From Candidatus Oxydemutatoraceae bacterium (GTDB lineage: Bacteria; Pseudomonadota; Gammaproteobacteria; Poriferisulfidales; Oxydemutatoraceae), in NCBI GenBank assembly GCA_965218975.1, contig OZ244717.1, positions 594,347 through 658,346 on the forward strand: a stretch of DNA of 64,000 nucleotides, read 5' to 3'. Below are positions 8,296 through 56,589 of this stretch, in pieces. Within the stretch, counting starts at the first letter, position 1; every line of letters begins with the position of its first letter. Position numbers and translations under genes: made by a program. The notes under the pieces were generated by a model that saw only the letters and a program-made list of their open reading frames with translations, did no database searches and had not been told where the DNA came from.

Positions 8296-8782
8296 TAAAG
8301 GGCCGGGCACATACCGTGAAATACTTCTCAATCAGTGGCGAAAAGCCCCGGCATGGCCTCTAGGTATTGAAGTAGAAAAGGGTATTTTCCGCAGAGGAAA
8401 TGATGAAGAAATCCGGACCGGAAGGTTGACATGCGCGACATAGAAACGAAGCTTGCGAGCGGATAACGTAGTAGAATCAAGGATTACAAAGCAATCGTTC
8501 GAGACTCCGATAACAAAGTACTGGGGTTGTGGGTACAAACCGGAAGCCTGCGCAGAACGGGCAGGTATTTAAGTTCCTAGATCCGTTTGTTAATGCGGGC
8601 AGCATTTAGCTTGAAACAGCAGGCAGCCTAAAGGACGGACGTAACGTCTGGGTGCTTGCAAGTCTAGGCTCCGGTTTTACCCCGGCAAAGGGTGATGAAA
8701 TGAGGTTGATTTTTCAGCAGGCGAAAGCGCGTCCGTAGCAATGGCAAATGCGCTAATGTGTGTAAATACAAAACTGTGCATA

Positions 8783-10861
8783 TCAGGCCCAGAGCCAATC
8801 CAGTTCCGAGAACGCGAGCTTGCGGTCAAAGTTCTCGATGTTGTCTCGGACATTCAGGATCAGGCAGCGGTCGCCGCCGCCATTCTTCGGTCCCCGCAAG
8901 CCCCTGCCGATCATTTGGAAGTAAAGGTTCGGGCTATACACCGGCCGTGCCACGATGATGGCGCGGGTCTTGGGCGCGTCGAATCCCTCCCGGAACACGG
9001 CGTAGTTCACGAGCGCTTTGATCTCGCCGCGACGGAACTCCTCGACCACGCGGCGGCGGGTCGCCGTTTCCGTCTCTGCACTCACGGCGCGCGACCGGAT
9101 GCCCCTCCGATTGAGGAGAGCCGCCACCGTCTGCGCATGCTCGACGGATGTCGCGAAGATGAGGGTGGGCCAATCCGGATCGACATGCTGTCCATAGGCT
9201 TCGATAATGCGCCTCGTCTGTTCGGCGCTCCGGGCGATCCGGTCCTCGACACTCGGCGGCAACCAAGGCAGCGACAGCCACTTTTCCAGTTCCCGCTCCC
9301 GATCATCGGAGTCGAGGGAGTTTTCCAAGATATCGTCGAGCGAGAATGTTTCGCCCTCGATGGTTTTGTGATCCGCTTGGGCCAGCACATCCTTAGCCTG
9401 TAGCTCCTGAATAACGTCTTGGGCGTTGTCGCTCTCGAATGCTCCGGCATCGAGCCGGTTGCCACCGTAACGATTGGCCAGCCACTTTGTTTCTTCCTCG
9501 TTGTATCCACGATAGGGAGTAGCGGTGAGGCCGAGCATGAATGGCTCGTCGGCCCTTTGGAAGCGCGTCAAGCCGATTTCGTCCATAACCGAAGTGAAGG
9601 TCGGGGCAATCGACCGATGCGCCTCGTCGAAGACGACCAGCTTGAAATTGGCCAGAAATTCGTATTCGCCGGGCTGCTTGGATAGCTTGGCATTGAGCGT
9701 CTGGATCGTCGCGACGACGACATGAAGGTCGCTTGTGGGGAGCGGTTTCGGTTGTCCGTCCCACATTCTGGAAACGCGAAGATGCGATTCATGAGGACCG
9801 ATACTCGACCAGACTTGGCGCCAAGCCTCCATAGCCTGCTCGCAAAGCTCGCTCCGGTCAGCGACCCATAGGATGCCACCTTTGAAGCCGCCATCGCGCA
9901 TCGCTTCGACGATCGCCTGAACGGCAACCCGCGTTTTACCCGATCCGGTCGGCATGCTGATCATCCCGCGTCGTTCGGCACCGCCCCCGTGCTCGTTATC
10001 CAGCATGTTTCGGACGTTATCGGCGATAGTCTTCTGGTAGTCATGGAGGAGCGAAAGGGAGCAGGGACCTTCGACTTCCAAGAAGGGATCACGTTTCTTC
10101 TTTCGCTCTCCGGCCCATTCAGTGGAGAACCCGAGCGAATGCACGAACTCGATGGCCCGAGGCGACCCGGCCCATTGCGACGGCGGATCGAGACGGTCCA
10201 GCGCTTGCTTGTATCGCTTGAGCGCATCGGTGTGATACATCGCGATGGCCGCTCCCGTGATCTTGACGCCCGTCAGCGTGATGCTGTCCTTCTCGAGCTT
10301 GAGCACGTCCAAAAGCGAAGCAGGAAGTTCTGTGTGTAGCTGTTGTTCTCCCACCGCAGCCAAGAGACGTTCGGCATCGGTCAAGTGCTGCCGTATTGCG
10401 GCGCGTTGTTCCTCGATCTCCTGCGGCGTCTTGCGCTGCACAATTGCCAAAATCTGCGTGGGACTCAGTTTAAGTTCCAATTCGCCTGCAACGACCTTCA
10501 GTTTACGTTGCTCGTCATCGTCAACAGTGCCTTCGAGATAGATGTCGGGGGAGAGAAAGACACACTCGCGTGATTCATCCATGACCAGGATTCGTTCGCA
10601 GGGGACGATACGGCATCGCTTCTGATGATCCTGAAGGTGTTCCTCCAATCCGGGCCAAACATCGGTCAGTGGGATTGGGTCTCCTTCGCTGAATAACTTC
10701 GGGGTTGGTTCGGTCAGATCGAACGCCGCCTTGATTTCTTCGGCTTTCGGATGGTTCAGTAGCACGTGCAGAGCTTCCGGGTTCGCCGGGTGAGGCCCAA
10801 GTGCGTCCTTCAGCGACACAATGCCAGTGGACGTTCGGATTCGTCCGTGCTCGTGGAGCAT
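8783..10861 (-). CDS. SF2 DEAH-box helicase (restriction-enzyme-Res-like) with a ~300-aa uncharacterised N-terminal domain
   Basis: Walker A MPTGSGKT, DEAH box VVFDEAHRS, LGLTATPYR and helicase-C QMIGRGLRG motifs. The ORF is open to 11023, but ATG at 10861 lies 16 nt after the upstream gene stop and avoids a 145-nt out-of-frame overlap. Confidence 0.7.
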   Translation of the reverse strand: MLHEHGRIRTSTGIVSLKDALGPHPANPEALHVLLNHPKAEEIKAAFDLTEPTPKLFSEGDPIPLTDVWPGLEEHLQDHQKRCRIVPCERILVMDESRECVFLSPDIYLEGTVDDDEQRKLKVVAGELELKLSPTQILAIVQRKTPQEIEEQRAAIRQHLTDAERLLAAVGEQQLHTELPASLLDVLKLEKDSITLTGVKITGAAIAMYHTDALKRYKQALDRLDPPSQWAGSPRAIEFVHSLGFSTEWAGERKKKRDPFLEVEGPCSLSLLHDYQKTIADNVRNMLDNEHGGGAERRGMISMPTGSGKTRVAVQAIVEAMRDGGFKGGILWVADRSELCEQAMEAWRQVWSSIGPHESHLRVSRMWDGQPKPLPTSDLHVVVATIQTLNAKLSKQPGEYEFLANFKLVVFDEAHRSIAPTFTSVMDEIGLTRFQRADEPFMLGLTATPYRGYNEEETKWLANRYGGNRLDAGAFESDNAQDVIQELQAKDVLAQADHKTIEGETFSLDDILENSLDSDDRERELEKWLSLPWLPPSVEDRIARSAEQTRRIIEAYGQHVDPDWPTLIFATSVEHAQTVAALLNRRGIRSRAVSAETETATRRRVVEEFRRGEIKALVNYAVFREGFDAPKTRAIIVARPVYSPNLYFQMIGRGLRGPKNGGGDRCLILNVRDNIENFDRKLAFSELDWLWA

Positions 10862-10877
10862 CCAGACTGCTGGCGAT

Positions 10878-11318
10878 TTACACTCTAACGGTAGGTAGGT
10901 ACAGGTCAGATCCCTTGTGCCGCATCGTCCATGGGCCGTACACGGCATTGTTTGACAATAGAGCATTCGTAAATTGTGCACGACCTTCATCGGAGAGATG
11001 ACGAAGAACTTCCAATGGTCCACAACCGACGCTCGTCTCGAAACCTAGAAGATAGGAATGTGGATTCTTTTCTAAAGAGCGACTAGCGAACCGCTTGCGC
11101 CAGTAGCCCAGGAACTCTTCAAACGACGGCTCCGCCGACAGATCGCAGTCGTCGTGTGGCACTTCCGTCGCATCAAGAGCGCGCAGCAACTTTTTGTCCG
11201 GTTCGTGGAAGTGCATATCCACAGTCGCATCATCGTCCCGACTTCCATCGCCCGGCACGATGTCGCCCGGCAGCAGCACGGAGTGCAAAGGCTGCCAAGT
11301 ACCCGCACGCATCCGCAC
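10878..11318 (-). CDS. Hypothetical 146-aa protein, middle gene of the island operon
   Basis: ORF packed between the ATPase gene (stop 11319) and the helicase gene with a GTG/ATG start immediately after the upstream stop; acidic N-terminus; no recognisable motif. Confidence 0.4.
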   Translation of the reverse strand: MRMRAGTWQPLHSVLLPGDIVPGDGSRDDDATVDMHFHEPDKKLLRALDATEVPHDDCDLSAEPSFEEFLGYWRKRFASRSLEKNPHSYLLGFETSVGCGPLEVLRHLSDEGRAQFTNALLSNNAVYGPWTMRHKGSDLYLPTVRV

Positions 11319-13247
11319 TCAGAGTTTCATGGGCCATAGTTCTCGCCCTTTCTGATCCTTTGGCCCCCGAACAATGGCATCAGCGTCTTCCACCGACAGC
11401 TTGCGCGAAGCGGTCCAGAACTCCTGATGAAGGTTCTCGCTTGCTTCTTGACCGGCGCCGCTTCCGAGGATGTGTTTTGCTACAACGTTGAACCTGTTCT
11501 CTGGCGACGGCAGCTTGAGGCCCAGCTTCTTCAACGCCGAAAGTGTGTCGGGGTCCGACGCCAGTTTCGGATGGACGCAAGACTTCGGGTCCGCGGGATC
11601 GTCTCCGTTCAGCGCATTGTCAGGCAGGAAGAGGCGTTCGGAATCGGGCGACCGCCAATCGCTGTTTGCTGTCAGGACGATATCGCCAAGTCCTTCGTCC
11701 GACCTTGCTTCGGACGGTATCGCTGCAGCCGTCTGTATCGCCGCCATGGACGCCCGAATCGCCTCGTCTCCTTCCTTGCCCTCCACGAGCGCCCGCAGCC
11801 ACACCGCGATCGGGGCCCTGGGCGCGGGCTCGCTATCGTGGGATCCATAATCTGACCGCTTCCGTTTCGGAGGAAACAACCGGTCAATGGTAGCAAGCCG
11901 ATTGCGTGTGAGTGCTTTATGATGAAGCCAATTGCGCGGACGGTCCGGGTATGCCGCCCAGCGCTCAAGCGGCTCTAGCTTTGAGGTTAACTCTTTCGGT
12001 GGGTACAAGAGGTTATTGTAAACACATAAGTTCCTACCTTGATCGGGGATAATTTCGCATTTGTGAAGATTAGTGAACAGGAGATCGCGAAGAAGATCGA
12101 CCTGTTTGGAATCGCCTCCCCCGTGTCGGCGCGGCAACGCATCCAAATGCTGGGCAGGGTCGTCATGAGTCGTGAGTTCCGGGAGCGCTTCGGCAATCAT
12201 CGCCGCCGCCGCTTTGATCAGCTCCTCATTGTACGCTCCCGGCAACAGATTCTGTCGATCCTCGTTGGTCTTCCATGGCGCATTAAGGATACCTGCGACG
12301 AGGCTCGCGGTGTCGGTCGGAAAGAATGCCCAGAATTGGCCCGGATCGGGCAACCTATTGAGCGGTACTGCCCACTGGATGCGCACCTTCTTGTCGCTGC
12401 CGTCCCCGGATCGCTGGTTGTCGTCGTCACGAGCATCACTCGACAGCGGGTGGGTGCACTCGAACAGTTTCCATTCATTGATCGTATCCTTGTTAGCTAG
12501 CGTATCCTTGTCAGCTAGGAGGTACTTGTCGTTGTCCCTCTCTAGCTCCAGCACGCGGTTCAACTTCTTTGAATTGTCGGTGAGCGTGATCTTCTTGACG
12601 TGTGCAACGAAAAGGAGAAACATCGGCGGGAAGCCCTGAATCTGCTGGGCAAGCTCCCCGTGCGCTCCCATCCTGAGGGGCAGGCGAACAATGTTCGTCG
12701 CCCAACTCATCAGTTCCCGCAATTCTTCATCCGTTTTCTTTGCGTCCTCGGGATCAACGGGCTCGGGTAGACGCAGCACCGGGTAGTGATCGGCCGGTGC
12801 GACCTTTGCTATGCGCTCCGCCGCGCGCCTCTTGTCGAAACGGAACGAACCTGAGCGGCTGTAGAACTCGGGCGCGTCGGTCACGCGCAAGACAGACTTG
12901 AAGCCGCGCCCGAATCTGCCGATCGCGGCGGTGTTCCGCTTGCTCGACATTCGGTCGAACATCAGCCCCTTAACACCGTCTTTATCTATGGGAGTTCCGT
13001 CATCGGCGCAGTAGAGGAATCCTTTCGTCAGGCAGATCAGGATGCGCTTCCCTTTCGGCGCATCAAGCAAGGCATCGGCACTGTTCTGGACGAGTTCGAA
13101 CAATTGGCGGTGGGCATATCCGCCCTGAGCTGTATCTTGTTCCAACCGGGCGTGTTCCGTTATCAGATTCGGTTGCTCGCGGTATACATTGAAGCTCTTT
13201 TTCGCTTCCTTGACGATGAACGCGCCCAACGGATCTTCAAGGACCAA
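11319..13247 (-). CDS. Sacsin/Hsp90-like GHKL (Bergerat-fold) ATPase with a ~400-aa unknown C-terminal region
   Basis: N-box ELVQNSADA, D.G.GM element (CADDGTPIDKDGVKGLM) and G-box IGRFGRGFKSVL align to Hsp90/sacsin/MORC motifs ELISNASDA and IGQFGVGFYS. The remainder does not resemble HtpG. Confidence 0.65.
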   Translation of the reverse strand: MVLEDPLGAFIVKEAKKSFNVYREQPNLITEHARLEQDTAQGGYAHRQLFELVQNSADALLDAPKGKRILICLTKGFLYCADDGTPIDKDGVKGLMFDRMSSKRNTAAIGRFGRGFKSVLRVTDAPEFYSRSGSFRFDKRRAAERIAKVAPADHYPVLRLPEPVDPEDAKKTDEELRELMSWATNIVRLPLRMGAHGELAQQIQGFPPMFLLFVAHVKKITLTDNSKKLNRVLELERDNDKYLLADKDTLANKDTINEWKLFECTHPLSSDARDDDNQRSGDGSDKKVRIQWAVPLNRLPDPGQFWAFFPTDTASLVAGILNAPWKTNEDRQNLLPGAYNEELIKAAAAMIAEALPELTTHDDPAQHLDALPRRHGGGDSKQVDLLRDLLFTNLHKCEIIPDQGRNLCVYNNLLYPPKELTSKLEPLERWAAYPDRPRNWLHHKALTRNRLATIDRLFPPKRKRSDYGSHDSEPAPRAPIAVWLRALVEGKEGDEAIRASMAAIQTAAAIPSEARSDEGLGDIVLTANSDWRSPDSERLFLPDNALNGDDPADPKSCVHPKLASDPDTLSALKKLGLKLPSPENRFNVVAKHILGSGAGQEASENLHQEFWTASRKLSVEDADAIVRGPKDQKGRELWPMKL

Positions 13248-13775
13248 CCCAATCCGATTTTCTGCCGGAAGCGGAATCGTATGCGCGCTTCATTCGCCTG
13301 ATCCGTATTGACGTTGATCAGAGTCATGCGCACGATACCAAAATAAGTCGGGGCATCTCAGCACTGCAGGATGTCTGAGTCTCATGGATGGCTTACGCAT
13401 ACTTAATCCTATCATAGCCCGACATGCTTTCGGAATGATGTGTACGGGGTCATCGCATAATTGCACAATTTGTGGCGGGCTTACACATGCTATTGCTTAT
13501 TCGAAAGAAGGAGATACACTGAATGGAGAAGGAGAATTGTAACTAACATAAAAGCATTGTAGAGGGCCGTGTGTGCGCTATTGCAGATGTATGATGCGTT
13601 TGGATGCCTTGCCGAATGTGCCGTTGATACGGCGGCATATACGCCTGTCGTTACCGACAAAATGAAATTTGCAGGGAAATTCGTGATGCATGTCGACTGT
13701 AAGGGCAGCGATTAATCCGGGAAGTTTGCTCACGGCTTTTTCAACTCTCCTGTTACGATACCAGGAATTTTTCAT

Positions 13776-14553: not shown

Positions 14554-15966
14554 TTAGTGCGGCGAAGACTCCAAATACTCTCGCGCACGTGCTAACTGAA
14601 TGCGCACTTGCTTCGGTGACGTTCCCCCATAACTATTGCGTGCGTCAAGCGCATGGCGTTCCGACAGCACCGTGAAGACATCGTCGGTAATCGCGGGACA
14701 AATCTTTTGCATGGCAGCAAGGTCTAATTCAACCAGTGCGCATTTCTTTTCAATCGCCAGCCGCACTAGCCGCCCAGCCGCAGTATGGGCGTCCCGAAAC
14801 GGGACTGATTTGCCAACCAGATAGTCGGCCAGATCGGTCGCTGTTGTGTAGCCGGACTTGACCGCCCAAGCCATCCGCTTAGGGTGAATTTGTAGCCCGC
14901 CGATGATTGCATCCAACATTAATACACAGCTGTGCACCGTGTCCGCCGCATCAAAAACCGGTTCCTTGTCCTCCTGATTGTCACGGTTATATGCTAACGG
15001 CTGCGCTTTCATAATTGTTAGCAGGGAAATCAAGCTGCCGTAGACTCTGCCGCTTTTGCCGCGAATTAGTTCCGCACTATCCGGGTTCTTTTTCTGCGGC
15101 ATAATAGATGACCCAGTGCAATGCGCATCGGACATTTCTATAAAATCAAAAGGTTGTGAACTCCATAAAACCAACTCTTCGCCTATCCGCGATAAATGCA
15201 TCATCAAAATTGCACCTGCGGCGCAAAACTCTATCGCAAAATCGCGATCGCTGACCGCATCCAACGAATTATCGCTCACTTCATCAAATCCCAATAGAGC
15301 GGCGGTATATTCGCGATCCGGCGCAAAGCCGGTTCCTGCCAATGCTGCTGACCCCAAAGGTAGAATATTTGTTCGCTGACGGACATCTGCCAGCCGTGCC
15401 CGGTCGCGTTTCAACATCTCAAACCATGCCAGCAAATGATGCCCGAAACTTACCGGTTGTGCCGCTTGCAGGTGAGTATAGCCCGGTAGCATTGTTTCAA
15501 TCTGCCGATCGGCGAGTGCAATAATACTACTTTGTAAATTCATTAACGCCACTTGTAGCCTGTCGATCACCTCGCGCAAGTAAAGCCGTAAGTCGGTTGC
15601 GACCTGATCGTTTCTTGAGCGTGCGGTATGTAGCTTTTTCCCTGTATCACCGATTAACGCGATTAATCTCGCCTCAATATTCATATGAATGTCTTCCAAT
15701 GCCGTTGACCACCGGAATTTCCCTCGTTCAATTTCCTCGCGGATTTGCTCCAAACCGCGCACGATTTGCGTCGCTTCCTCGTTGTTTAAAACCATCGCTT
15801 TTTCCAGTGTCCGGGCGTGTGCGATGGATACTTCAATATCCTGACGGTACAGCCTCCTATCAAATTGTACCGATGCGGAAAAAGTTTCCAGCACGGCACT
15901 GCTGTCTGCGTTGAAACGACCCTGCCATGGTTTTATCGGTTGGTTTGCTTTCTTTTTACTTTTCAT
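14554..15966 (-). CDS. argH: Argininosuccinate lyase
   Basis: 470 aa; fumarate-lyase signature region and SRNDQVATDLRL motif. Confidence 0.92.
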   Translation of the reverse strand: MKSKKKANQPIKPWQGRFNADSSAVLETFSASVQFDRRLYRQDIEVSIAHARTLEKAMVLNNEEATQIVRGLEQIREEIERGKFRWSTALEDIHMNIEARLIALIGDTGKKLHTARSRNDQVATDLRLYLREVIDRLQVALMNLQSSIIALADRQIETMLPGYTHLQAAQPVSFGHHLLAWFEMLKRDRARLADVRQRTNILPLGSAALAGTGFAPDREYTAALLGFDEVSDNSLDAVSDRDFAIEFCAAGAILMMHLSRIGEELVLWSSQPFDFIEMSDAHCTGSSIMPQKKNPDSAELIRGKSGRVYGSLISLLTIMKAQPLAYNRDNQEDKEPVFDAADTVHSCVLMLDAIIGGLQIHPKRMAWAVKSGYTTATDLADYLVGKSVPFRDAHTAAGRLVRLAIEKKCALVELDLAAMQKICPAITDDVFTVLSERHALDARNSYGGTSPKQVRIQLARAREYLESSPH

Positions 15967-16270: not shown

Positions 16271-17179
16271 ATGCCTACAATGGATGCTATTAGCGAAGTT
16301 ACGGTTGCTTCAAAACCAGCCAGAAAAGGTATCCGCGAAGGCCGGGGTTGGCGTTTCTATTGCCAGTCTTCGGAGAAAATGCGGCAGGTCGGCGATGGCA
16401 GTATTGCTCTGACCATTACTTCGCCGCCCTATTGGAATGCCATAGACTACGACCTACACACGAGCGGCGGCGATGAAATATGGCACAGGCAAAGGGAGTA
16501 TTCGCAGTTCGGTAAGACCTACGGGGAATGGCTGGAGCGAGTGCGTCAAGTCTTTCAGGAAGTTCATAGGGCGACAATGGATGGCGGCTTTTGTGCCGTG
16601 GTCATCGGCACGATCCTCAAAGACCGGAAACATTATCCCGCCCCCTTTGATTTCACAGATCGGATGTTGAAAATCGGTTGGAAATTCCACCAGGACATAA
16701 TCTGGAATAAGGTAACGGGCGGCGTAAAACGAGCCGGCGTGTTTATCCAACATCCCCAACCGGGGTACTACTACCCAAACATCATGACCGAATACATACT
16801 GATTTTCCGCAAAAGCGAAACAATGCGCAGAGGTGCGGAACAAGCATTGCCGATAGATGAAGTCTTTAAGCGAGATATTGCCAACAATATTTGGCACGTT
16901 GCGCCGGTGCCACCGCGCACGATAGCGCACCCATGCCCCTACCCCGACGAGATCGTGCGTCGGCTTACCCTGCTCTACTCGCAACCTGGGGATGAAATAC
17001 TAGACCCATTCTTAGGCAGCGGTCAGACTGCAAAAGTAGCCCTCCGAAATAAGCGGCGTGTCGTGGGTTATGATATCGAGCAGCGATACATAGACTTGTC
17101 TGCCGCTCGTCTGAACGATACTAGTAGGCGAGAGTATCAGTTACTGCCGTCTTTTGAAAAGGTGAAGGCTGCGGTTTGA
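16271..17179 (+). CDS. Beta-class DNA amino-methyltransferase (N4-cytosine type suggested by the SPPY motif)
   Basis: Motif IV TSPPY near residue 50 precedes motif I DPFLGSGQT near residue 245, the circularly permuted beta-class order; SPPY rather than DPPY/NPPY favours N4C. Confidence 0.85.
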   Translation: MPTMDAISEVTVASKPARKGIREGRGWRFYCQSSEKMRQVGDGSIALTITSPPYWNAIDYDLHTSGGDEIWHRQREYSQFGKTYGEWLERVRQVFQEVHRATMDGGFCAVVIGTILKDRKHYPAPFDFTDRMLKIGWKFHQDIIWNKVTGGVKRAGVFIQHPQPGYYYPNIMTEYILIFRKSETMRRGAEQALPIDEVFKRDIANNIWHVAPVPPRTIAHPCPYPDEIVRRLTLLYSQPGDEILDPFLGSGQTAKVALRNKRRVVGYDIEQRYIDLSAARLNDTSRREYQLLPSFEKVKAAV

Positions 17180-17841
17180 TGGCGATGCCGGATGGCGGGA
17201 GAGGGCGCCCCGCGAGCTATAACAAGGAACGAGGTTATTTCCGTAGCCTCAAAGAAAATGTCTCGTGGCAGGCATTAGCGAAATATGAGCAGGCAATCAA
17301 AACCCTTTTAGAGAGATACAACACCACCATATACGAAAATCGCTTTATCGCCGGCGGGGCAGTAGAAGTCTTTACGCTGATGCTACTGTGTTCTGCGGGT
17401 ATTCCGGCGCAGAGCTACGGCGATGAAACTGCTGCCGGTGACGTTATCCTGCCTAATAAGCGGATGCTGTCCATAAAGGGAAGCTTTACGGGTTCGAAGG
17501 ATAGTATCCGACTAATTAACACAATGGGCGAAACGAAAGCGGTATGGTGCACTGCAACGTTATTCATAATCACAGGCTTGGGCATTGTGTATGGCGACCC
17601 TGTTATGTTGGAAGATGGTGATTTGTCCCGTGCCAAAGATGCTCTAATGCTTCGGCGGGCAGCGATAGATAGGTTCGCGTCAGATCCGGCTAATTTGATT
17701 GCGATAGATATTGCCCAAAAGCCGTCCAAGCAAATGACACGTTTTAGCCATAAGGCAAGCACTGCGGTTGCTCGTCAGATCATGTATGAGCAGCAGCTGA
17801 AGACGCTATTGTCGCAAGTCAATGGGCAACATAGTATGTAG
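17176..17841 (+). CDS. Putative cognate Type II restriction endonuclease (221 aa)
   Basis: Start ATGA overlaps the MTase stop (translational coupling); no family assignment possible by eye; the role is inferred from position only. Confidence 0.4.
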   Translation: MMAMPDGGRGRPASYNKERGYFRSLKENVSWQALAKYEQAIKTLLERYNTTIYENRFIAGGAVEVFTLMLLCSAGIPAQSYGDETAAGDVILPNKRMLSIKGSFTGSKDSIRLINTMGETKAVWCTATLFIITGLGIVYGDPVMLEDGDLSRAKDALMLRRAAIDRFASDPANLIAIDIAQKPSKQMTRFSHKASTAVARQIMYEQQLKTLLSQVNGQHSM

Positions 17842-43628: not shown

Positions 43629-44266
43629 GTTACTAAGTAGTAAATGAGCCGTCCCTCAAATGCCGCTAATTCGGTGTCGCTGGCGCCGGTGATGCTGTCA
43701 GGTTGATTGCGTGTCTCTACATTACCCAATGCGTTAGTCGGTAGACTGTACTTCAATGTCAGATAGTCATCGGTCTCCAGTACTGTCGTCACACTTCTGT
43801 AGTCGGTATTGGCCGGACGCCCGAAAGCAAAATAGGCATCGTCGCCAGTGAATCGGCGCGCGTATAACTGCACCCAGCGAGTATAAAAAGGTCCCTCTAA
43901 TTGTGATATCGCGCCTTTCGAGACTCTCCGCACATGTCCTTTGCTGTCAACCTCCACATGCGTAATCGCCTCCCCGGTCGCTGCCACAACGTTGGCAGGT
44001 GTCAGCAGTTGATTCGTGTGCTCCAATGTTCGCTCGCCGGCGCTATTGCTAAAAAGACGCAACGCGGCATCCAAGCCGAACAATTGATCTGCTTTGATTT
44101 TGGCGTCGGCATTTAGCGTAGGTATCCCGCTTGCTTGATTCAGCGCCTCAAGCAACTCAATGAATCGGTTGGCTAAGTTGAGGAGTTCCGCTCTCGCCAA
44201 AGACGGATTATCGCTGGCGGCGTCTAGGTGCCGCTTGAGTATGTCCGCTGGATTAGGTATCGGCAT
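43625..44266 (-). CDS. Phage tail protein (213 aa)
   Basis: Immediately downstream of the J-like gene. Confidence 0.45.
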   Translation of the reverse strand: MPIPNPADILKRHLDAASDNPSLARAELLNLANRFIELLEALNQASGIPTLNADAKIKADQLFGLDAALRLFSNSAGERTLEHTNQLLTPANVVAATGEAITHVEVDSKGHVRRVSKGAISQLEGPFYTRWVQLYARRFTGDDAYFAFGRPANTDYRSVTTVLETDDYLTLKYSLPTNALGNVETRNQPDSITGASDTELAAFEGRLIYYLVT

Positions 44267-47200
44267 CTATGCTTCCTCTTCCAATAGGATAATTTGCAAC
44301 GACGATAGTACGGCGGGCGATATTCCGTTCGTCATAATTCTCACTTGGAATTGGAATAGCCGTCCGGTAATTCGTTGATCTTCAGGTATCAATGTCCATT
44401 GATTGAAACCGCCCGAGTCGGGGTCAATCACACTGTACTCTAACGTGTAGCCGGATTCGCCCGTGATACCGGCCGACAGCAATGCTCTCACTGTTTTCTC
44501 AGTGAATACATCAATTAAATTTGTTTCGTATGTAGCTTCTTGCACCGGACTCTGTCCCCATATTGTCCAGTCAGCCCACGTCTGCGGCGCGGTGCTCCAC
44601 GTTAGAGATGAGGCGGTATGCAGATCACTGCCGCTGCGCACCAAGTTACCTATGAAGCCCGGCCATCTCTGCAAATGCTCGTTCGCGAAATAGATCGCCT
44701 GCCCGGGCGCGTTTACATTGAGATTAACTGTCTTATAAACGGCGTTTAATGATTCATTACCCGCGCGATTAACAGCTTTGACTCCAGCCGTATATGTGCC
44801 CGGAGGCAGGTGAAATGTTTCATGAGGGCTGGCGGTAATGAGCCCTTGATGCAGCGGCGTCATTGATTCCCACACACCGTCCAAGCCGATGGCCAACCGT
44901 ATCTGATAGCCTGCAACATCACCATCGTCTACCTCTCGCCATGAAATTGACGTGAGTCCTCCCGGGTCTTGGGTGATCATCAGCCCGAACACGTCATCGG
45001 GCACAATATCGTTATCTCGGAGCGTAATATTCTGACGCCACGCATGACCTGTATTTACGCCTCGTGCCCCCGGTATGATAATAACTGGATATCTACCGGT
45101 CTCTTGCGCCGGCACGGTCCACGAGGCACGTGTCGAATTCTCGATGTAGGTGACTTGCTCATGAGGGTCACCAACGAACACAGCGGCGGAAAAATAATCG
45201 CCACTCACGTCGAAAGCCAACGACAATACACGTTCATACACTCCATTACGGTATCGCCATAATTGCGTAACCGAGGTGCCGGTGATTATCGGCGCCTCAA
45301 ACCGCCGCCGCGCCTGTGCCACAACTGCCGGATTATTTTCTGCCTCATAGTATTCCGGCAGATAGTCAATACCGGTTAAAGTCGCTTGTCGCTCCTGCGT
45401 CCATTGCACACCGGTGATTTTGACTTGTCGGTGCCGGCCGCCCAGCCCAAAGTGAAAGTGTATATCGTCCGTCTGCCAATCATCGCTGATGCCGACATCA
45501 GCCGTATCACCATCTGTAGCGGAGACGGCGGGGGTAATCAGGATCACCTTCGCCGCATCGCTGCCGGGTCTGGCTTTAAACACCTTGACCGCGCCATTCG
45601 GATAAAACAGCGTGAGATACGCTTCTGCTCTGCCGCGAAAATCAACTGTCGCAGGTAGGCCGACCACGTTGTCCTCGCTGTCCCAACTCTTGATTCGACC
45701 CGCCGCATCAATGCGCGGAATTGCCATCGCAACGACATCGCCGCGGCTCAGCAATAACGCCTCCATGCCCATCTGCCAACTCTGCCCTCGTCGCAGCAAT
45801 TGGTTTGCCGACCACTGCAAATTCGCCTCCTTTTCCGCTTGCTTGCGCGTAGTCACGCCGACCAATTCGACGTTCGCTTGATTCGCGATAGCGCCTGTCG
45901 CAGTCGCGACGTTCGGCACGCGGATCGTGGAGTGCTCCCAGTGGTTCTCGGGATCAATATAGCGGGCGACGACTTGCTCCGCCAACGCATGCCCGCCGGC
46001 CCACTCGAGCGTGTGCGATCCCGCAATAATGTTAGCCGGTGACACAAGCATTGCTGACGGTTTGTGCGGCGCATCATACGATACGGATAATCTGCCGGCC
46101 GGCCAACCCCACGCCGCTCGCCCGCACCGTGCGATGACGTCTAGCACTCCCGCATGACTGTGCCCGCGTACGACATAGTCGCAATGGAGTTCGTTGTCCT
46201 GGCAAAACTCTGCCCAGTCGTTAAGATTGCCGATCATCTCGTCAGGCAATCCGATGCCGCCGGCGAGTACGTTGTCCGGGCGACGGAAACCGCGCGCATA
46301 CGCACGGAATATGGCTGCCGGATTACGCATTCGGTTGTCCCAGCTTTCCGGCGCTTTGACCCATGCCTCGTTATCGCTATCATAATAAGGAATCATCTGC
46401 CGGCAGAGCGACGACCATGTATTGATCTGGCCGGAGAGTTGCCCCGTAGCACGAATCACAACAGCCTCGCGCACTTGCCCGACGTAATCCGCAGTGTCCG
46501 GTTGATAGGCTTTGAGCTGCACCCACTCAAATGTATTCGTCTGCCCGAAACTGCCGGCCGAATCGTGATCTTCGGTCAACTTAGTAACGGCGACATCGTA
46601 TTCGCCGGCGGCATCAAGCCGGTAGCGGTAAGTTTTGCGCACCGGTTTCGTATTGTCGTTGCTGATATTGATCGTGTCGAGCCGCTGCCAATTATCCATG
46701 CCGACCAGACGCGTATCCACCGTGACCTCAATTGATGCAGTGCGCACTCCCTTCTTCGTCAGATCAAACAATATGCCGGTCAAATCCACTGCAATCTCGT
46801 CCACGTTGTCCGGCGTCGTACGCTCAACCGCATTATCGTGAGTTAGTTCGGCACCGGTGATAATAGCCACGTCGCCCGAATAACTCTGCAGCGCACCGGT
46901 AACTGCATGCGACTGCTCCGTCTCCACATCGTCGTATTGATCAATGCCGATGGTGCCGATGCGTGTGTCGCTGATTGCCACATTTCCGACCCCGTAATGA
47001 AACACTTGCTGTAAGTATTGCTTGTCGCCCTCAAAGTAAGTGACCGGTGCCGCCGCATTGTCTGGCTGCACGCGGTGTTCGCCGAGCACGAGCATAAACG
47101 GTTCCCACAGGCGCGTCTGGTTGCGCGCCGCGCTCAACGAGTAGATCGGCTCTTGTTCCTGTTGTCGCCGATTGCTTGGTTGCGGCACGGACGGCGCGAA

Positions 47201-47623
47201 TGCGCCGGCAATGAGCAGCCCGCCGACTGTGGTAATAGCCTGCGCGAATTTTGCGCCGATGGTGAAGCCGCCGATCTTCGTGCCTTCGATAGCGCCGGCG
47301 ACCACCGGCCCGACATAAAAAGCGGCAAACGCGAATGCGACTATCGCGATGATACTCCCGATGTTAAGGTCGCCTCGCACGACTGCGTGCACCTCAACGA
47401 TGTCGCGAGGACCGAGCCGATAGGAAAATGCACGGTCGTTGTCTATCTGCACACCGTTTACTCGGATGACCGGTGTGCCGGCGACCGTCGGCACGCGCAG
47501 ACGCTCAACATAACTAATGAGTGTCTCACCGTCTCGCGGTGGCATAAACAATACCTTGCGCTCGCCCGGCTGTAGCGGATGCGGCGAGATAATGAGCGAC
47601 GGCGGGATTAAGGCTTGTTCCAC
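44267..47623 (-). CDS. Host-specificity protein J-like central tail fibre/tip protein
   Basis: 1118 aa; the giant ORF after the K-like gene is typical of gpJ. Confidence 0.7.
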   Translation of the reverse strand: MEQALIPPSLIISPHPLQPGERKVLFMPPRDGETLISYVERLRVPTVAGTPVIRVNGVQIDNDRAFSYRLGPRDIVEVHAVVRGDLNIGSIIAIVAFAFAAFYVGPVVAGAIEGTKIGGFTIGAKFAQAITTVGGLLIAGAFAPSVPQPSNRRQQEQEPIYSLSAARNQTRLWEPFMLVLGEHRVQPDNAAAPVTYFEGDKQYLQQVFHYGVGNVAISDTRIGTIGIDQYDDVETEQSHAVTGALQSYSGDVAIITGAELTHDNAVERTTPDNVDEIAVDLTGILFDLTKKGVRTASIEVTVDTRLVGMDNWQRLDTINISNDNTKPVRKTYRYRLDAAGEYDVAVTKLTEDHDSAGSFGQTNTFEWVQLKAYQPDTADYVGQVREAVVIRATGQLSGQINTWSSLCRQMIPYYDSDNEAWVKAPESWDNRMRNPAAIFRAYARGFRRPDNVLAGGIGLPDEMIGNLNDWAEFCQDNELHCDYVVRGHSHAGVLDVIARCGRAAWGWPAGRLSVSYDAPHKPSAMLVSPANIIAGSHTLEWAGGHALAEQVVARYIDPENHWEHSTIRVPNVATATGAIANQANVELVGVTTRKQAEKEANLQWSANQLLRRGQSWQMGMEALLLSRGDVVAMAIPRIDAAGRIKSWDSEDNVVGLPATVDFRGRAEAYLTLFYPNGAVKVFKARPGSDAAKVILITPAVSATDGDTADVGISDDWQTDDIHFHFGLGGRHRQVKITGVQWTQERQATLTGIDYLPEYYEAENNPAVVAQARRRFEAPIITGTSVTQLWRYRNGVYERVLSLAFDVSGDYFSAAVFVGDPHEQVTYIENSTRASWTVPAQETGRYPVIIIPGARGVNTGHAWRQNITLRDNDIVPDDVFGLMITQDPGGLTSISWREVDDGDVAGYQIRLAIGLDGVWESMTPLHQGLITASPHETFHLPPGTYTAGVKAVNRAGNESLNAVYKTVNLNVNAPGQAIYFANEHLQRWPGFIGNLVRSGSDLHTASSLTWSTAPQTWADWTIWGQSPVQEATYETNLIDVFTEKTVRALLSAGITGESGYTLEYSVIDPDSGGFNQWTLIPEDQRITGRLFQFQVRIMTNGISPAVLSSLQIILLEEEA

Positions 47624-47982
47624 CGGTAGTACCCCTCAACGGCCAGCATCTGTTTTGCTAATATCGGTAGCGTGCTCAAGAATACACCGCCTGCCATCTG
47701 CGAATTATGTACCACGACGAGGTGCTTGAGCACCTTTGCTGCAACGCCCAAATGATAGCCTTTTACTCCCTTCATCAATACTGCATCGCCGTCTTTCGGA
47801 TCGTCGGTCTTTGCCCACCTTGGTGGCCAATGTCGACGAATGAAGGCAGGTGTCAATGCTTCATCCTGCGGTAAGACTAGGTCGCGCCCAAATTCTTGCC
47901 GCTGCACGTCGGCGAAAAATGCCGCGCAATCGTACTCATCGCTGTAGCGTGCACCTAACCAATTCGTAAACCAGTACGACAT
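47608..47982 (-). CDS. Tail assembly protein K-like NlpC/P60 (C40) peptidase-fold protein
   Basis: 124 aa with Cys motif YDCAAFFADV and downstream His residues. Confidence 0.5.
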   Translation of the reverse strand: MSYWFTNWLGARYSDEYDCAAFFADVQRQEFGRDLVLPQDEALTPAFIRRHWPPRWAKTDDPKDGDAVLMKGVKGYHLGVAAKVLKHLVVVHNSQMAGGVFLSTLPILAKQMLAVEGYYRWNKP

Positions 47983-48473
47983 CAGAAAAATAACCCCGGC
48001 GCTGTTGCCGGTTCAAACCGCTGCCGGACCGCCGGCCGGTTTAATGTGTTTGGCAGCCCCAACCGGAAAACAATCTCGCGCGCGGTCGCCTGAATGCCGA
48101 CGACCTCAAGCCCGCGAAAGGCAAACTTAACGTCGTCCGGTTCGCTACGTGCGACCTCAAGTAAATTGACTGTGGCGCCGTCGGCGCCGTTCGTCTGATC
48201 AATCACGTCAACCAGCGCATCAATGCGGTCGAATGCGATGGAGGCAGAGGGTTGTTGCCCCTCTTGTTCAGACGGTTTGCGGGCAACGAAACGTGCGCGA
48301 TGATAAGTGTATCCGTTCGACACAAAATCCTCCACGTCATTTGCCAACCGAAACGGCTCAACCAAATCAGGATGCACGAACTCAAGCAGCGTCACGGTTG
48401 CCGGTAAGTCACCGCGCAGTAGTTGCTCCGCCAATGTCATGCGAAAAACTCCAGCGTTAAATACGCCTGCCAC
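47982..48473 (-). CDS. Minor tail protein L-like
   Basis: 163-aa ORF between the M-like and K-like genes in lambda-type order. Confidence 0.5.
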   Translation of the reverse strand: MAGVFNAGVFRMTLAEQLLRGDLPATVTLLEFVHPDLVEPFRLANDVEDFVSNGYTYHRARFVARKPSEQEGQQPSASIAFDRIDALVDVIDQTNGADGATVNLLEVARSEPDDVKFAFRGLEVVGIQATAREIVFRLGLPNTLNRPAVRQRFEPATAPGLFF

Positions 48474-48793
48474 GGCCGCTCTGCTTGCGGGTCGCCAAGC
48501 ACATAGCGCACTCTGCCTGCGACGATTTGCGCTTGCACGTTCTCTGACGACCCATACAGCGGGAAACTAAATTGGTTTGCGCCGGTATTTAGATCATCGC
48601 GTACCCACGCCGCGAATAATGTTTTGTCGTCTTGCGTCAACGGCACCACGACAGTCAACGTATGCCGCGCCGCGCTGTAAATCCGTTTCTGCCGGGTGTA
48701 CCCGTCGTCGTAAGGCGTGCGCGCAAGCCCCGGATCAACATCCACTTGATGAGGGGTCACTTGCGGGTTGGCGTAGGCCGGCCAATCTGCCAT
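48437..48793 (-). CDS. Minor tail protein M-like
   Basis: 118-aa ORF directly after the tape measure gene. Confidence 0.45.
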   Translation of the reverse strand: MADWPAYANPQVTPHQVDVDPGLARTPYDDGYTRQKRIYSAARHTLTVVVPLTQDDKTLFAAWVRDDLNTGANQFSFPLYGSSENVQAQIVAGRVRYVLGDPQAERPWQAYLTLEFFA

Positions 48794-51003: not shown

Positions 51004-51205
51004 TGTTTTGCTCCCGGTGAGTTAACTCAACGATGCGTTGCTCCATTACGCGCAGTCCTGTGAATACGGATTTAAACGGGATATGAAGCGCCCTTAAAGT
51101 GTGCTTAACCGCCCCGTAATCCAACGCATAAATCCCCCCGAACCCGACGCGCCATTGTGTGCTGACCAGTAAAAATGCTCGCATTATTTCCACAGCCTCC
51201 GGCAA
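50993..51205 (-). CDS. T-like extension frame of the tail assembly chaperone (expressed as a G-T fusion by -1 frameshift)
   Basis: The -1 frame after the A-AAA-AAC heptamer reads LVGAAEHWFSGAKGDYELLPEAVEIM... into this ORF. Confidence 0.5.
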   Translation of the reverse strand: MPEAVEIMRAFLLVSTQWRVGFGGIYALDYGAVKHTLRALHIPFKSVFTGLRVMEQRIVELTHREQNNAK

Positions 51206-51255
51206 TAATTCATAATCACCCTTTGCGCCGCTAAACCAATGTTCCGCGGCGCCGA

Positions 51256-51621
51256 CTAGTTTTTTGCCAGGCTCGATGCAATCATGGCAGGGTTGTGTAT
51301 CGCAGTGGTTAGCTCGGCTAGCAACGCGGATACGACGGCGCTATAAACATAAGGAATATCGATCAGGTCTTTAAATGCCTGCTCGCTGAATGTGATGTCG
51401 TCGCCGCCTTCATCGCGCACGTGTTTCCACCCTTTGACGATAGATAGTATTGTATCCGCATCATCGTCATCATTATTAGCGCATCGGCGCACAAAAGCAT
51501 CACGCTCGCGCATGGATAGGTACTTGATCTTGATCTGGAAAGTCTGGCTTTTGCCCGCCCCCGGCACCTTAACATCCACATCAAGGTCAACAGTTTCCGG
51601 TCGCACAACGACGAACCCCAT
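51256..51621 (-). CDS. Tail assembly chaperone (G-like)
   Basis: 121-aa acidic ORF between the major tail and tape measure genes; ends ...GCA AAA AAC TAG. Confidence 0.6.
   Translation of the reverse strand: MGFVVVRPETVDLDVDVKVPGAGKSQTFQIKIKYLSMRERDAFVRRCANNDDDDADTILSIVKGWKHVRDEGGDDITFSEQAFKDLIDIPYVYSAVVSALLAELTTAIHNPAMIASSLAKN
51259..51265 (-). other. Programmed -1 ribosomal frameshift slippery heptamer A-AAA-AAC
   Basis: Minus-strand AAAAAAC (plus GTTTTTT), last two sense codons of the G-like ORF; an X-XXY-YYZ pattern at the canonical position. Confidence 0.55.
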
Positions 51622-52397
51622 CAGTCAGGTCTCCCATTGATGTAGAGCGCAGGCTGACCACCTCGCGCCAGAAACTCTGCGCTGAAAGATATCTGCATCG
51701 GTGTCTCGCGCGATTGCAGCGCGCTTTCGCCGCTCGGTGCCAGTTCCGCATACGGGGCATACAAGTCTTTGTTTGCACCTTCGGCGTTGTCGGCGATCCA
51801 CCGTAACGCACCGGTCAAGCTGGCATTTGCCGTTGTCTCCACTTGGTCGTATTTAAGGTGCGGCGCCAGCGTCATGTAGCTGAACTCAACGATAGCATCA
51901 TCGGCAATGCTCCCATCCGGTTTGATGTAGATTCTCCCCATATCGGCGTCTAATATGTAATCATCGTCGACGGCGTAAACTACCTCCTCATCCGCAAGGC
52001 CGACCTTCTTTTCCACGCTCACACCTTTGACTTCCTTAAGATTTTTGCCGACCTGATACCACCGTCCTTTTTTCACCTTGCGTTCTTCGTGAGCCACCGC
52101 TTGGGACGGCTGTGCGACCTCCTTTGATCGCCCGCCGACAAACATTGCGAGATTCTCCGCTGAGATGTGCTCACACGTAATATTCGCGGTTCGCGTGATG
52201 CTCCTGACTACGCTGCTGATTTTCTCCGCCGTCGGTGTGTCCGACGAATACACGTCTGTCTTCTCGACCGCGACAGACAGGCCGAACCCTGGGGTCTCAC
52301 CCAAATATATTTCGCCGGTCTTTTCGCCGGCGTCGTCGAACGGGTCGAAGTACAGCCGCCCGGCGCCGAGAACGATGTTTCTTTTTTCTTCTAACAT
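51621..52397 (-). CDS. Major tail (tube) protein
   Basis: 258-aa ORF immediately upstream of the chaperone pair. Confidence 0.55.
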   Translation of the reverse strand: MLEEKRNIVLGAGRLYFDPFDDAGEKTGEIYLGETPGFGLSVAVEKTDVYSSDTPTAEKISSVVRSITRTANITCEHISAENLAMFVGGRSKEVAQPSQAVAHEERKVKKGRWYQVGKNLKEVKGVSVEKKVGLADEEVVYAVDDDYILDADMGRIYIKPDGSIADDAIVEFSYMTLAPHLKYDQVETTANASLTGALRWIADNAEGANKDLYAPYAELAPSGESALQSRETPMQISFSAEFLARGGQPALYINGRPD

Positions 52398-53685: not shown

Positions 53686-53688
53686 GTG

Positions 53689-54995: not shown

Positions 54996-55015
54996 AATAA
55001 TTTCTCCTTTGTGAA

Positions 55016-55354: not shown

Positions 55355-55369
55355 AATGTTCTCCTATGT

Positions 55370-56557: not shown

Positions 56558-56589
56558 GCGGGCAATTATTGCCGCCGCCGGTTGATATG

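What the first reader, a model, noticed from the sequence alone, without database searches (positions are those of the whole stretch)
8741..13300. GC-rich island with a GHKL ATPase / 146-aa protein / SF2 helicase operon: candidate uncharacterised defence or restriction-like system
A ~4.6-kb segment of ~60% GC is inserted between the fmt and esterase genes in a ~50% GC chromosome. It encodes a co-directional operon with near-zero intergenic gaps. Its first gene is a 642-aa sacsin/Hsp90-like Bergerat ATPase (ELVQNSADA; IGRFGRGFKSVL). Its second gene is a 146-aa unknown protein. Its third gene is a 693-746-aa SF2 DEAH helicase (MPTGSGKT, DEAH, QxxGRGxR) preceded by a ~300-aa unassigned domain that could hold a nuclease. 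Comparative work by Iyer, Abhiman and Aravind (2008) predicted that MORC/paraMORC-type GHKL ATPases occur with SF2 helicases and nuclease domains in restriction-like systems. I know of no experimentally characterised system with this exact trio. The helicase N-domain, the ATPase C-terminal ~400 aa and the small protein have no family I can name.
Basis: partly seen in the sequence, partly recalled or inferred. Interest (0 to 1): 0.85.

Follow-up and report, generated by a model that had tools for sequence, protein, structure and literature searches.

The report
Broken ATPase-helicase defence-like gene
The supposed three-gene operon is one horizontally acquired ~1,500-residue ATPase-helicase gene, from an uncharacterised family related at one end to the Tiamat anti-phage protein, that has been broken by a stop codon and frameshifts and is most likely dead in this genome.

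Summary
The ORFs, motifs and raised GC are real, but the three-gene reading is wrong. The 146-aa ORF lies in the same frame as the 642-aa ATPase ORF, separated by a single TGA. The helicase ORF follows after a +4-nt ACCT tandem duplication.

In 75 of the 80 best-scoring related loci (of 288 matches), the same sequence is one uninterrupted ~1,500-aa ORF. That ORF holds a sacsin-like GHKL ATPase, a ~600-aa family-specific middle region and an SF2 helicase. Three small edits to the window DNA restore a 1,501-aa ORF that aligns end to end with the homologues at 61-66% identity. The window copy also lacks 18 conserved N-terminal residues. It is flanked by a brnT tail and a DUF932 remnant.

I conclude it is a fairly young pseudogene inside decayed foreign DNA. 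The segment is 57.8% GC against 48% for the non-prophage part of the window.

The family is uncharacterised. PADLOC TmtA (Tiamat) profiles match only residues ~9-426. The middle region shows no known fold and no nuclease fold. No partner gene is conserved, except a BrnT toxin gene directly upstream in 10 of 78 loci. Among the fetched loci, eight record titles carry sponge-associated taxon names. The family is moderately interesting; this locus is not.

The parts
8783..13293 (-). Pseudogene of a single ~1,500-aa sacsin-like GHKL ATPase / family-specific middle region / SF2 helicase protein, from the ancestral ATG at 13293 to the stop at 8785-8783
   Evidence: Three edits give one 1,501-aa ORF: delete one T at 13240/13239, change TGA to CGA, and delete one ACCT. 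That ORF aligns residue 1-1501 to 1-1506 of intact homologues at 61-66% identity. tblastn with an intact homologue covers 13232-10917 in one frame and 10888-8786 in another.
13239..13293 (-). Damaged N-terminus. It reads MKRAYD..SASGRKSDWVGP, with an in-frame 54-nt deletion of the conserved FSKGxRGRFFRxxAKLxL segment. A 1-nt (T) insertion at 13240/13239 shifts the frame into the TTG-initiated ORF.
   Evidence: Comparison with the N-termini of 10 intact homologues, which read MKxEYDFSKGxRGRFFR...DW.GP.G.(L/I)G.F(I/V/L).
11319..13247 (-). Fragment 1 (the 642-aa ORF): GHKL ATPase plus transducer-like domain (about residues 1-430) and the first third of the middle region
11319..11321 (-). In-frame TGA nonsense codon, most likely derived from CGA (Arg)
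   Evidence: Sequence ...AAA CTC TGA GTG CGG.... The aligned residue is Arg in 21 of 29 homologues, with a CGA codon in 6. TGA terminates 8 other long ORFs in the window. The equivalent Arg starts a beta strand with pLDDT ~94 in the model.
10878..11318 (-). Fragment 2 (the '146-aa protein'): same frame as fragment 1, corresponding to residues ~643-789 of the full protein. It contains the conserved loop LLPGxIVPGDGSRDxxxTVDxxFHxxD.
   Evidence: Homologues cover 98-99% of the joined 789-aa query across the stop. No Pfam, NCBIfam or PADLOC family matches it alone.
10893..10900 (-). Tandem ACCTACCT; the extra ACCT unit causes a +4-nt frameshift
   Evidence: Removing one unit gives WTMRHKGSDLYLPLECKSPAVWMLHEHGRIRT. 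This matches the homologues in length and in the conserved Y and C positions. The site lies just after a beta strand with pLDDT ~91.
8783..10861 (-). Fragment 3 (692-aa ORF from ATG 10861; the mechanical ORF extends to GTG 11023): second half of the middle region plus the SF2 helicase core (about 10048-8786)
   Evidence: ResIII 1.9e-28, DEAD 3e-17 and Helicase_C 2.3e-14. The best PDB sequence relatives are 7clg (deposited as 'Putative helicase', which I recall as the SauUSI type IV restriction enzyme), RadD 6jde and 1wp9 (deposited as 'ATP-dependent RNA helicase, putative', which I recall as the Hef helicase).
13290..13328 (-). Probable 3' tail of a brnT toxin gene (..HDSDQRQYGSGE*), whose stop overlaps the big gene's ATG as ATGA
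   Evidence: BrnT C-termini in related loci end ..SERRQYESGE*, with the same 4-nt overlap. tblastn gives 70% identity over 10 aa, E = 0.04 in a 700-nt target. This evidence is weak on its own and rests on the position.
8470..8720 (+). DUF932 pseudogene remnant with a frameshift and an in-frame stop, lying between fmt and the helicase stop
   Evidence: Translations. Pfam PF06067 E = 2.1e-7, 31.4 bits against a cut-off of 23.

Best explanation
The locus is the decayed remnant of a horizontally acquired cassette. The cassette held one large gene, probably preceded by a brnT toxin gene.

The intact protein is ~1,500 aa with four parts:
- a short conserved N-terminal peptide;
- a sacsin/Hsp90-like GHKL ATPase with its transducer domain, homologous to the first ~425 residues of the Tiamat protein TmtA;
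- a ~600-aa family-specific alpha/beta and helical middle region;
- a C-terminal ResIII-type SF2 helicase.

In this genome the gene has suffered five lesions (shown):
- an 18-codon deletion at the N-terminus;
- a +1 frameshift;
- a CGA-to-TGA nonsense mutation;
- a +4 ACCT-duplication frameshift;
- loss of most of brnT.
The three ORFs are therefore fragments, and the system is most likely non-functional here.

For the intact family I infer a mechanism; it is not shown. The protein would be a single-polypeptide, nucleic-acid-directed surveillance or defence machine. ATP-driven dimerisation of the GHKL clamp would be coupled to an SF2 translocase. The middle region would supply target recognition or an unrecognised effector. 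In the subset with an overlapping upstream brnT, the BrnT ribonuclease may be the effector. I put about 0.6 on the family being an anti-mobile-element system.
For: One gene, not three:
- ORF2 is in frame with ORF1 after a single TGA.
- Database homologues span the stop and run on into ResIII/DEAD/Helicase_C domains.
- 288 stretches in species-representative genomes encode relatives; 75 of the best 80 carry one uninterrupted ~1,500-aa ORF with both ATPase and helicase motifs.
- In-silico repair restores a 1,501-aa ORF collinear with the homologues.

Lesions look real and damaging:
- Both internal lesions fall inside confidently modelled beta-hairpins, not in linkers.
- All 26 other ORFs of at least 250 aa from the first ATG in the window end at ordinary stop codons; I did not check their completeness against homologues.
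- The flanks hold further remnants: DUF932 and a brnT tail.

Foreign origin:
- GC is 57.8% against 48.1% for the non-prophage part of the window, z = 7.6.
- The three nearest Fmt relatives have DUF4390-ntrY-ntrX-trkA after fmt and no such gene.
- Family genes keep ~58.6% GC whatever the host flank GC.

Family properties:
- TmtA profiles match only the N-terminal ~425 residues, in both the close and the distant tier.
- The catalytic motifs of both engines are conserved in 58-63 of 63 intact members.
- The middle region is family-specific: 539 clusters among 1.84 billion representatives. Where the protein is about full length (~1,450-1,620 aa), it lies at about residues 430-1090.
- No partner gene is conserved.
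- BrnT sits upstream in 10 of 78 loci, always together with the N-terminal motif (Fisher p = 1.6e-5).
- A remote relative sits in a Dcm/MzaB/MzaD/MzaC-like operon on an Arthrobacter plasmid.
Against: - I could not see reads, so assembly error cannot be formally excluded for this genome.
- The 642-aa fragment keeps a complete ATPase module. The fragments are neatly juxtaposed (TGA directly followed by GTG; TAA followed by an ATG 14 nt later), so residual expression of the pieces is possible.
- Apart from these lesions the 4.5 kb has no further stops, so the decay is recent or the fragments are still under some constraint.
- The 75-of-80 intact fraction is biased, because the tool kept the 80 best-scoring of 288 loci.
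- The defence role of the family is inferred. It has no experimental support, only scattered defence genes among nearest neighbours, and no recognisable nuclease.
Confidence: 0.88

Rival explanations
1. The gene is intact in the organism, and the stop codon and frameshifts are errors of the metagenome-assembled sequence.
For: The only database copies of the 642-aa and 692-aa products come from a single 2.08-Mb contig with no named source. The window's genes are not in the gene-position index. Some related ENA assemblies are visibly error-prone: trkA is split into several small genes on a contig labelled 3x.
Against: The lesions are a C-to-T substitution, a 54-nt deletion and a 4-nt tandem duplication. 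Only one is a single-base indel, so this is not a typical homopolymer error pattern. All 26 other ORFs of at least 250 aa from the first ATG in the window end at ordinary stop codons. The neighbouring brnT and DUF932 sequences are also degraded.
Confidence: 0.07
2. This is a functional split version: gene fission has produced a three-subunit system (ATPase, small subunit, helicase) that is translationally coupled.
For: The fragments abut with start codons in place: GTG directly after the TGA, and an ATG 14 nt after the TAA. All catalytic motifs are intact. There are no additional stops in 4.5 kb.
Against: None of the 80 fetched related loci shows this three-ORF split; the five not scored as one ORF were not examined individually. 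The ~600-aa 'short forms' in the database are not a split version either. P0068 is a deletion remnant with helicase-motif scraps right after its stop, and P0106 lies among small unannotated ORFs 2.8 kb from an IS66 transposase gene. Both break points cut beta-hairpins inside folded domains. The conserved N-terminal segment is deleted and the ancestral start is out of frame.
Confidence: 0.04
3. Programmed recoding (TGA read-through or selenocysteine, plus ribosomal frameshifting) yields the full-length protein.
For: The stop is a TGA and it is in frame.
Against: Homologues have Arg, His or Gln at this position, not Cys or Sec. TGA is used as an ordinary stop in the window. Intact homologues need no recoding. 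Two different frameshifts (+1 and +4) would both have to be bypassed.
Confidence: 0.01

Closest known systems
Tiamat defence system, protein TmtA (Millman et al. 2022, as represented by PADLOC models PDLC03964-03972)
   Same: Both have an N-terminal sacsin-like GHKL ATPase plus transducer module (E = 1.3e-52; residues 9-426 match profile positions 11-425). Both are one large polypeptide of ~1,500 aa with no conserved partner gene.
   Different: Only ~27% of the TmtA profile is matched. The remaining ~1,060 residues, including the SF2 helicase, do not match any TmtA model, in either the close or the distant members of the family. Papers in the held library list Tiamat's mechanism as unknown.
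GHKL (MORC/paraMORC) ATPases linked to SF2 helicases and nucleases in restriction-like operons (Iyer, Abhiman and Aravind 2008, PMC2292703)
   Same: A GHKL-plus-S5-type ATPase is combined with a ResIII/Rad25-type SF2 helicase. The family shows a laterally mobile distribution.
   Different: Here the two engines are fused in one protein rather than encoded by neighbouring genes. No methylase or recognisable nuclease is linked. The ATPase is structurally nearest to sacsin SR1, SMCHD1 and Hsp90, not specifically to MORC. Sacsin is not mentioned in that paper.
Sacsin repeat region SR1 (PDB 5v44), SMCHD1 ATPase module (6mw7) and Hsp90 paralogues
   Different: Sequence identity is only 14-20%. Those are eukaryotic chaperone or chromatin proteins with no helicase fusion.
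SF2 helicases 7clg, RadD (6jde) and 1wp9. The PDB deposits 7clg as 'Putative helicase' and 1wp9 as 'ATP-dependent RNA helicase, putative'; identifying them as the SauUSI type IV restriction enzyme and the Hef helicase is from my memory.
   Same: These are the best sequence matches to the helicase core (E = 6e-20, 8e-20 and 7e-16). PADLOC PbeA and mREase_IV models match the same core.
   Different: All scores are far below the family cut-offs: RadD scores 109 bits against 720, and the dnd restriction enzyme model 59 against 600. No PLD or other nuclease domain is present.
Mza-like operon on Arthrobacter sp. 68b plasmid p2MP (Dcm methylase, a 1,096-aa TmtA-N-like protein, and MzaB-, MzaD- and MzaC-like proteins)
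   Same: The 1,096-aa protein shares the TmtA-like ATPase module. It also shares the first half of the middle region (27% identity over 54% of that region).
BrnT/BrnA type II toxin-antitoxin
   Same: In 10 of 78 loci a BrnT toxin gene (PF04365, E = 2e-22) lies directly upstream of the big gene; in nine of them it overlaps the start by 4 nt. That is the position brnA occupies in brnTA operons. All ten carry the N-terminal MKxEYDFSKGxRG motif.
   Different: No Pfam antitoxin model matches the N-terminus. Its resemblance to BrnA is from my memory and was not tested. Most family members have no adjacent BrnT.

Membership tests
Tiamat (TmtA) | Significant match to TmtA profile HMMs | tested here: met
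   PDLC03964 E = 1.9e-53 on the 642-aa fragment and 1.3e-52 on the repaired protein; eight further TmtA models also match.
Tiamat (TmtA) | Match over most of the ~1,300-1,780-position TmtA profile (same overall architecture) | tested here: not met
   Only profile positions 11-425 of 1,538 are matched, in one stretch. The same holds for five other family members.
Tiamat (TmtA) | Single-gene system without an obligatory partner | tested here: met
   Clustering the flanking ORFs of 77 loci finds no family in more than 11 loci. The most consistent neighbour is BrnT, in 10 loci.
Tiamat (TmtA) | Protects against phage when expressed | not testable with these tools
   Needs cloning of an intact homologue and phage challenge.
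MORC/paraMORC GHKL restriction-like systems | GHKL domain followed by an S5/transducer domain with catalytic motifs | tested here: met
   [not shown]
MORC/paraMORC GHKL restriction-like systems | Membership of the MORC or paraMORC1-5 clades rather than another GHKL clade | tested here: inconclusive
   [not shown]
MORC/paraMORC GHKL restriction-like systems | Linked nuclease and/or DNA methylase | tested here: not met
   [not shown]
   75 of the 80 best-scoring related loci have one continuous ORF. Homologous proteins span both junctions.
HtpG / housekeeping Hsp90 | Reaches the HtpG family model | tested here: not met
   The only NCBIfam hit is the NF047352 sacsin-like domain; Pfam HATPase_c is below its cut-off.
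RadD or another core repair helicase | Reaches the equivalog cut-off | tested here: not met
   RadD scores 109 bits against a cut-off of 720. XPB, UvrB, RecQ and RecG are all far below their cut-offs.
Type I/III restriction R subunit | ResIII helicase plus an endonuclease domain and Mod/HsdM partners | tested here: not met
   The ResIII domain is present. The hsdR, EcoAI and PRK11448 models score far below their cut-offs. There is no methylase partner. The methylase at 16271-17179 is separated from the segment by two genes that look like housekeeping genes.

The most novel reading that the evidence does not exclude
The intact family (sacsin-like GHKL ATPase, a ~600-aa domain set of unknown fold, and an SF2 helicase in one ~1,500-aa chain) is a previously undescribed single-protein anti-mobile-element system. 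It would be related to Tiamat only through its ATPase module, would spread by horizontal transfer, and among the fetched loci occurs in several genomes with sponge-associated taxon names. In a sub-lineage it would be wired to a BrnT ribonuclease, held by an antitoxin-like N-terminal peptide and released on sensing. The window holds a dead copy of this system.
Probability: 0.4. Interest if true: 0.6.

Novelty: new variant of a known kind. Interest (0 to 1): 0.33.

Why it matters
For this genome it matters little. It corrects an annotation: three 'genes' are one pseudogene, and the strain should not be counted as carrying a working system.

The family behind it is more useful:
- It gives Tiamat's unexplained ATPase module a second context, with a recognisable motor (an SF2 translocase) attached. 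That could make the module's mechanism easier to study.
- It shows that the sacsin-type GHKL module is reused with different partners: a fused helicase here, and Mza-like genes on an Arthrobacter plasmid.
- Its wide phyletic spread at 50-67% identity, with a gene GC of ~58.6% that does not track the host flanks, suggests horizontal transfer within a shared gene pool.
- The BrnT-coupled variants offer a testable hypothesis for an effector.

Tried and rejected
- Looked for the source contig by exact look-up of window proteins (the 642-aa product and Def). Neither is on record. Cluster look-up gave no names. The organism is therefore placed only by Fmt similarity, as a gammaproteobacterium whose nearest relatives are 54-66% identical.
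- A strict 'empty site' test was not possible. The nearest relatives are too distant and their synteny downstream of fmt differs.
- No direct repeats, tRNA gene or integrase mark the borders of the segment.
- A profile search of the PDB by sequence found only helicase-core matches.
- Pfam found no family for the conserved N-terminal peptide. A database search with that peptide returned no candidates.
- I tested whether the ~600-aa database forms are a natural stand-alone ATPase gene. I rejected this: P0068 is a deletion remnant and the 1,067-aa gene after it is unrelated.
- I tested whether the more distant ~1,550-aa tier is true TmtA. I rejected this: it has the same helicase architecture and the same partial TmtA match.
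- Phage genomes have no match to the middle region, and plasmids have one remote match.
- A PADLOC scan of 101 nearest-neighbour ORFs gave only scattered defence hits, at most two members per defence family, so it gives no clear defence-island signal.
Full report
**1. Observation**

The window has three co-directional minus-strand ORFs:
- 13247-11319 (642 aa);
- 11318-10878 (146 aa);
- 11023-8783 (746 aa from the GTG, or 692 aa from the ATG at 10861).

Profile searches agree with the domain calls. The first ORF matches the sacsin-type GHKL domain (NCBIfam NF047352, E = 8.6e-17; Pfam SACS). The third matches ResIII, DEAD and Helicase_C. The 146-aa ORF matches nothing.

The segment lies between fmt and an Abhydrolase_2 esterase. 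Its GC is 57.8%. The whole window is 51% GC, and another stretch (44-64 kb) is about as GC-rich. That stretch is a prophage, with tail protein J, tape measure, Mu F, Mu portal and large terminase genes. Against the remaining 37.5 kb (48.1% GC; 4.5-kb windows have SD 1.3% and a maximum of 51.5%), the segment is an outlier at z = 7.6. The compositional claim therefore holds once the prophage is set aside.

**2. The 'operon' is one gene**

The 146-aa ORF begins on the codon directly after the TGA that ends the 642-aa ORF, and it is in the same frame.

I searched the protein database with the two pieces joined. It returned proteins that cover 98-99% of the 789 residues across the stop and continue into ResIII/DEAD/Helicase_C domains.

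A scan of one genome per species found 288 stretches that encode relatives. Of the 80 best, 75 carry a single uninterrupted ORF of ~1,450-1,600 codons containing both the ATPase motif NAPWKTN and the helicase motifs. This fraction is biased upward, because the tool keeps the best-scoring loci.

tblastn with an intact homologue covers window 13232-10917 in one frame and 10888-8786 in another.

Reading the junctions gives four lesions:
- An in-frame 54-nt deletion removes FSKGxRGRFFRxxAKLxL from the conserved N-terminus. The ancestral ATG survives at 13293 as MKRAYD.
- One extra T at 13240/13239 shifts the frame.
- TGA at 11321-11319 replaces a codon that is Arg in 21 of 29 homologues, with CGA in 6.
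- A tandem ACCTACCT at 10900-10893 has one surplus unit.

Undoing the last three restores a 1,501-aa ORF. It aligns from residue 1 to 1501 with intact homologues at 61-66% identity.

TGA ends 8 other long ORFs in the window, so it is an ordinary stop codon in this genome.

In an AlphaFold model of the middle region (pLDDT 84), the Arg replaced by the stop begins a beta strand with pLDDT ~94. The frameshift lies just after another strand, with pLDDT ~91. Both breaks therefore cut folded domains rather than linkers.

**3. The surroundings are also decayed**

Between fmt and the helicase stop lies a DUF932 fragment with a frameshift and a stop.

Directly upstream of the ancestral ATG, and overlapping it as ATGA, is a 12-codon tail (..HDSDQRQYGSGE*). 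It resembles the C-terminus of the BrnT toxins found in the same position in related loci. That evidence is weak by score and gains weight from its position.

I found no tRNA gene, integrase or flanking repeats.

The three nearest Fmt relatives (54-66% identity) have DUF4390-ntrY-ntrX-trkA after fmt and nothing like this gene. They are too distant for a strict empty-site test.

**4. The intact family**

*Helicase.* The helicase is nearest in sequence to three PDB entries: 7clg, RadD (6jde) and 1wp9. From memory, 7clg is the SauUSI restriction enzyme and 1wp9 the Hef helicase; the depositors call them only putative helicases. It is far below every equivalog cut-off.

*Selection.* The catalytic motifs of both engines are conserved in 58-63 of 63 intact members.

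**5. Context and distribution**

No neighbouring gene is conserved across 77 loci. The exception is a BrnT toxin gene (PF04365, E = 2e-22). It lies directly upstream in 10 loci and overlaps the big gene's start by 4 nt in nine of them. All ten carry the N-terminal MKxEYDFSKGxRG motif, against 19 of 68 other loci (p = 1.6e-5). From memory, that peptide resembles the start of BrnA antitoxins. Pfam does not detect this and a peptide search returned nothing, so the resemblance is untested.

Nearest-neighbour ORFs hit defence models only sporadically.

The middle region has no match in phage genomes. It has one remote match in plasmids: a 1,096-aa TmtA-N-like protein in a Dcm/MzaB/MzaD/MzaC-like operon on Arthrobacter plasmid p2MP. 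This shows that the ATPase module also serves in restriction-like operons of the kind Iyer et al. described.

The host genomes span many phyla. Eight of the 80 record titles carry sponge-associated taxon names (Poriferihabitaceae, Spongiisocius, Spongiisociaceae, Poriferisodalis, Palauibacter); the rest have generic names. The genes keep ~58.6% GC whatever the flank GC. Both points are consistent with lateral spread.

Decay recurs elsewhere. A 612-aa database form (P0068) is a deletion remnant with helicase-motif scraps right after its stop. Another (P0106) lies among small unannotated ORFs, 2.8 kb from an IS66 transposase gene.

**6. Interpretation**

Shown:
- the locus is one gene with four lesions, inside foreign and decayed DNA;
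- its family has a constant architecture and shares homology with TmtA only at the N-terminus.

Inferred:
- the intact protein is a nucleic-acid-directed defence or surveillance machine, in which a GHKL dimer clamp is coupled to an SF2 translocase;
- its effector is unknown, and may be BrnT in one sub-lineage.

Rivals:
- assembly error (0.07), because I cannot inspect reads;
- a functional split into three subunits (0.04);
- programmed recoding (0.01).

**7. Verdict**

The locus itself is ordinary, a pseudogene. The family is an uncharacterised variant of the Tiamat/GHKL-helicase theme and deserves moderate interest.

One point is unexplained. None of the 120 best database proteins is full length, the longest being 1,377 aa, although most genome loci are intact.

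Noticed in passing
window 8470-8720 (+): A DUF932 (PF06067) gene fragment with a frameshift and an in-frame stop lies between fmt and the end of the helicase. It looks like a leftover of mobile-element DNA.
   Followed up: yes
window 13290-13328 (-); loci L002, L007, L009, L010, L014, L015, L017, L028, L038, L077, L085: A BrnT ribonuclease toxin gene sits directly upstream of the big gene in 10 of 78 related loci, overlapping its start by 4 nt in nine of them. It occurs only where the big protein starts with MKxEYDFSKGxRG (p = 1.6e-5). L085 (the P0068 locus) shows the same arrangement. The window keeps only the last ~12 codons of brnT. The N-terminal peptide may be derived from the BrnA antitoxin, but that is from my memory and Pfam does not confirm it.
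   Followed up: partly
window ~44000-62000 (-): A prophage region with a tail protein J-like gene, tape measure, Mu F-like protein fused to a PBECR2 nuclease domain, Mu-type portal and large terminase. It is ~55% GC against 48% for the rest of the window. This explains the second GC-rich stretch in the window.
   Followed up: partly
window 16271-17841 (+): An N6_N4 DNA methyltransferase (302 aa, Pfam E = 2e-36) is followed, with a 4-nt overlap, by a 221-aa ORF that has no Pfam family. This may be a type II restriction-modification pair. It is separated from the pseudogene by the esterase and a 470-aa minus-strand ORF at 14554-15966, probably argH (assigned by eye, not checked with a profile).
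   Followed up: partly
window 12483-12518: An 18-nt tandem duplication (94% identical copies) lies inside the ATPase coding region and gives LADKDT/LANKDT. Like the ACCT duplication, it is a slippage-type change, but this one is in frame.
   Followed up: no
loci L001-L080: Relatives at 50-67% identity occur in metagenome-assembled genomes of many phyla. Eight of the 80 records carry sponge-associated taxon names. The gene's GC stays near 58.6% while the host flanks range from 50% to 71%. This suggests a gene pool shared within a habitat, but habitat metadata were not checked.
   Followed up: partly
[not shown]
   Followed up: partly
L085 469-4038 (-) and 8001-9839 (+): Beside a decayed 612-aa copy of the family (with BrnT upstream) lies a 1,189-aa HTH/SNF2/Helicase_C/NOV_C (DUF3883) protein, another defence-like helicase.
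   Followed up: no
protein database hits: None of the 120 best-scoring database proteins is full length; they range from 554 to 1,377 aa, even on megabase contigs. Yet 75 of the 80 best-scoring genome loci have an intact ~1,500-aa ORF. The cause could be error-prone assemblies, gene-calling artefacts or frequent decay; I did not resolve it.
   Followed up: no
window 10878-11318 (-), residues ~20-50 of the 146-aa ORF; alignments A2 and A3: A nearly invariant loop, LLPGxIVPGDGSRDxxxTVDxxFHxxD, rich in Asp and His, lies in the middle region. It could be a metal-binding or catalytic site, although no known nuclease fold was detected.
   Followed up: no
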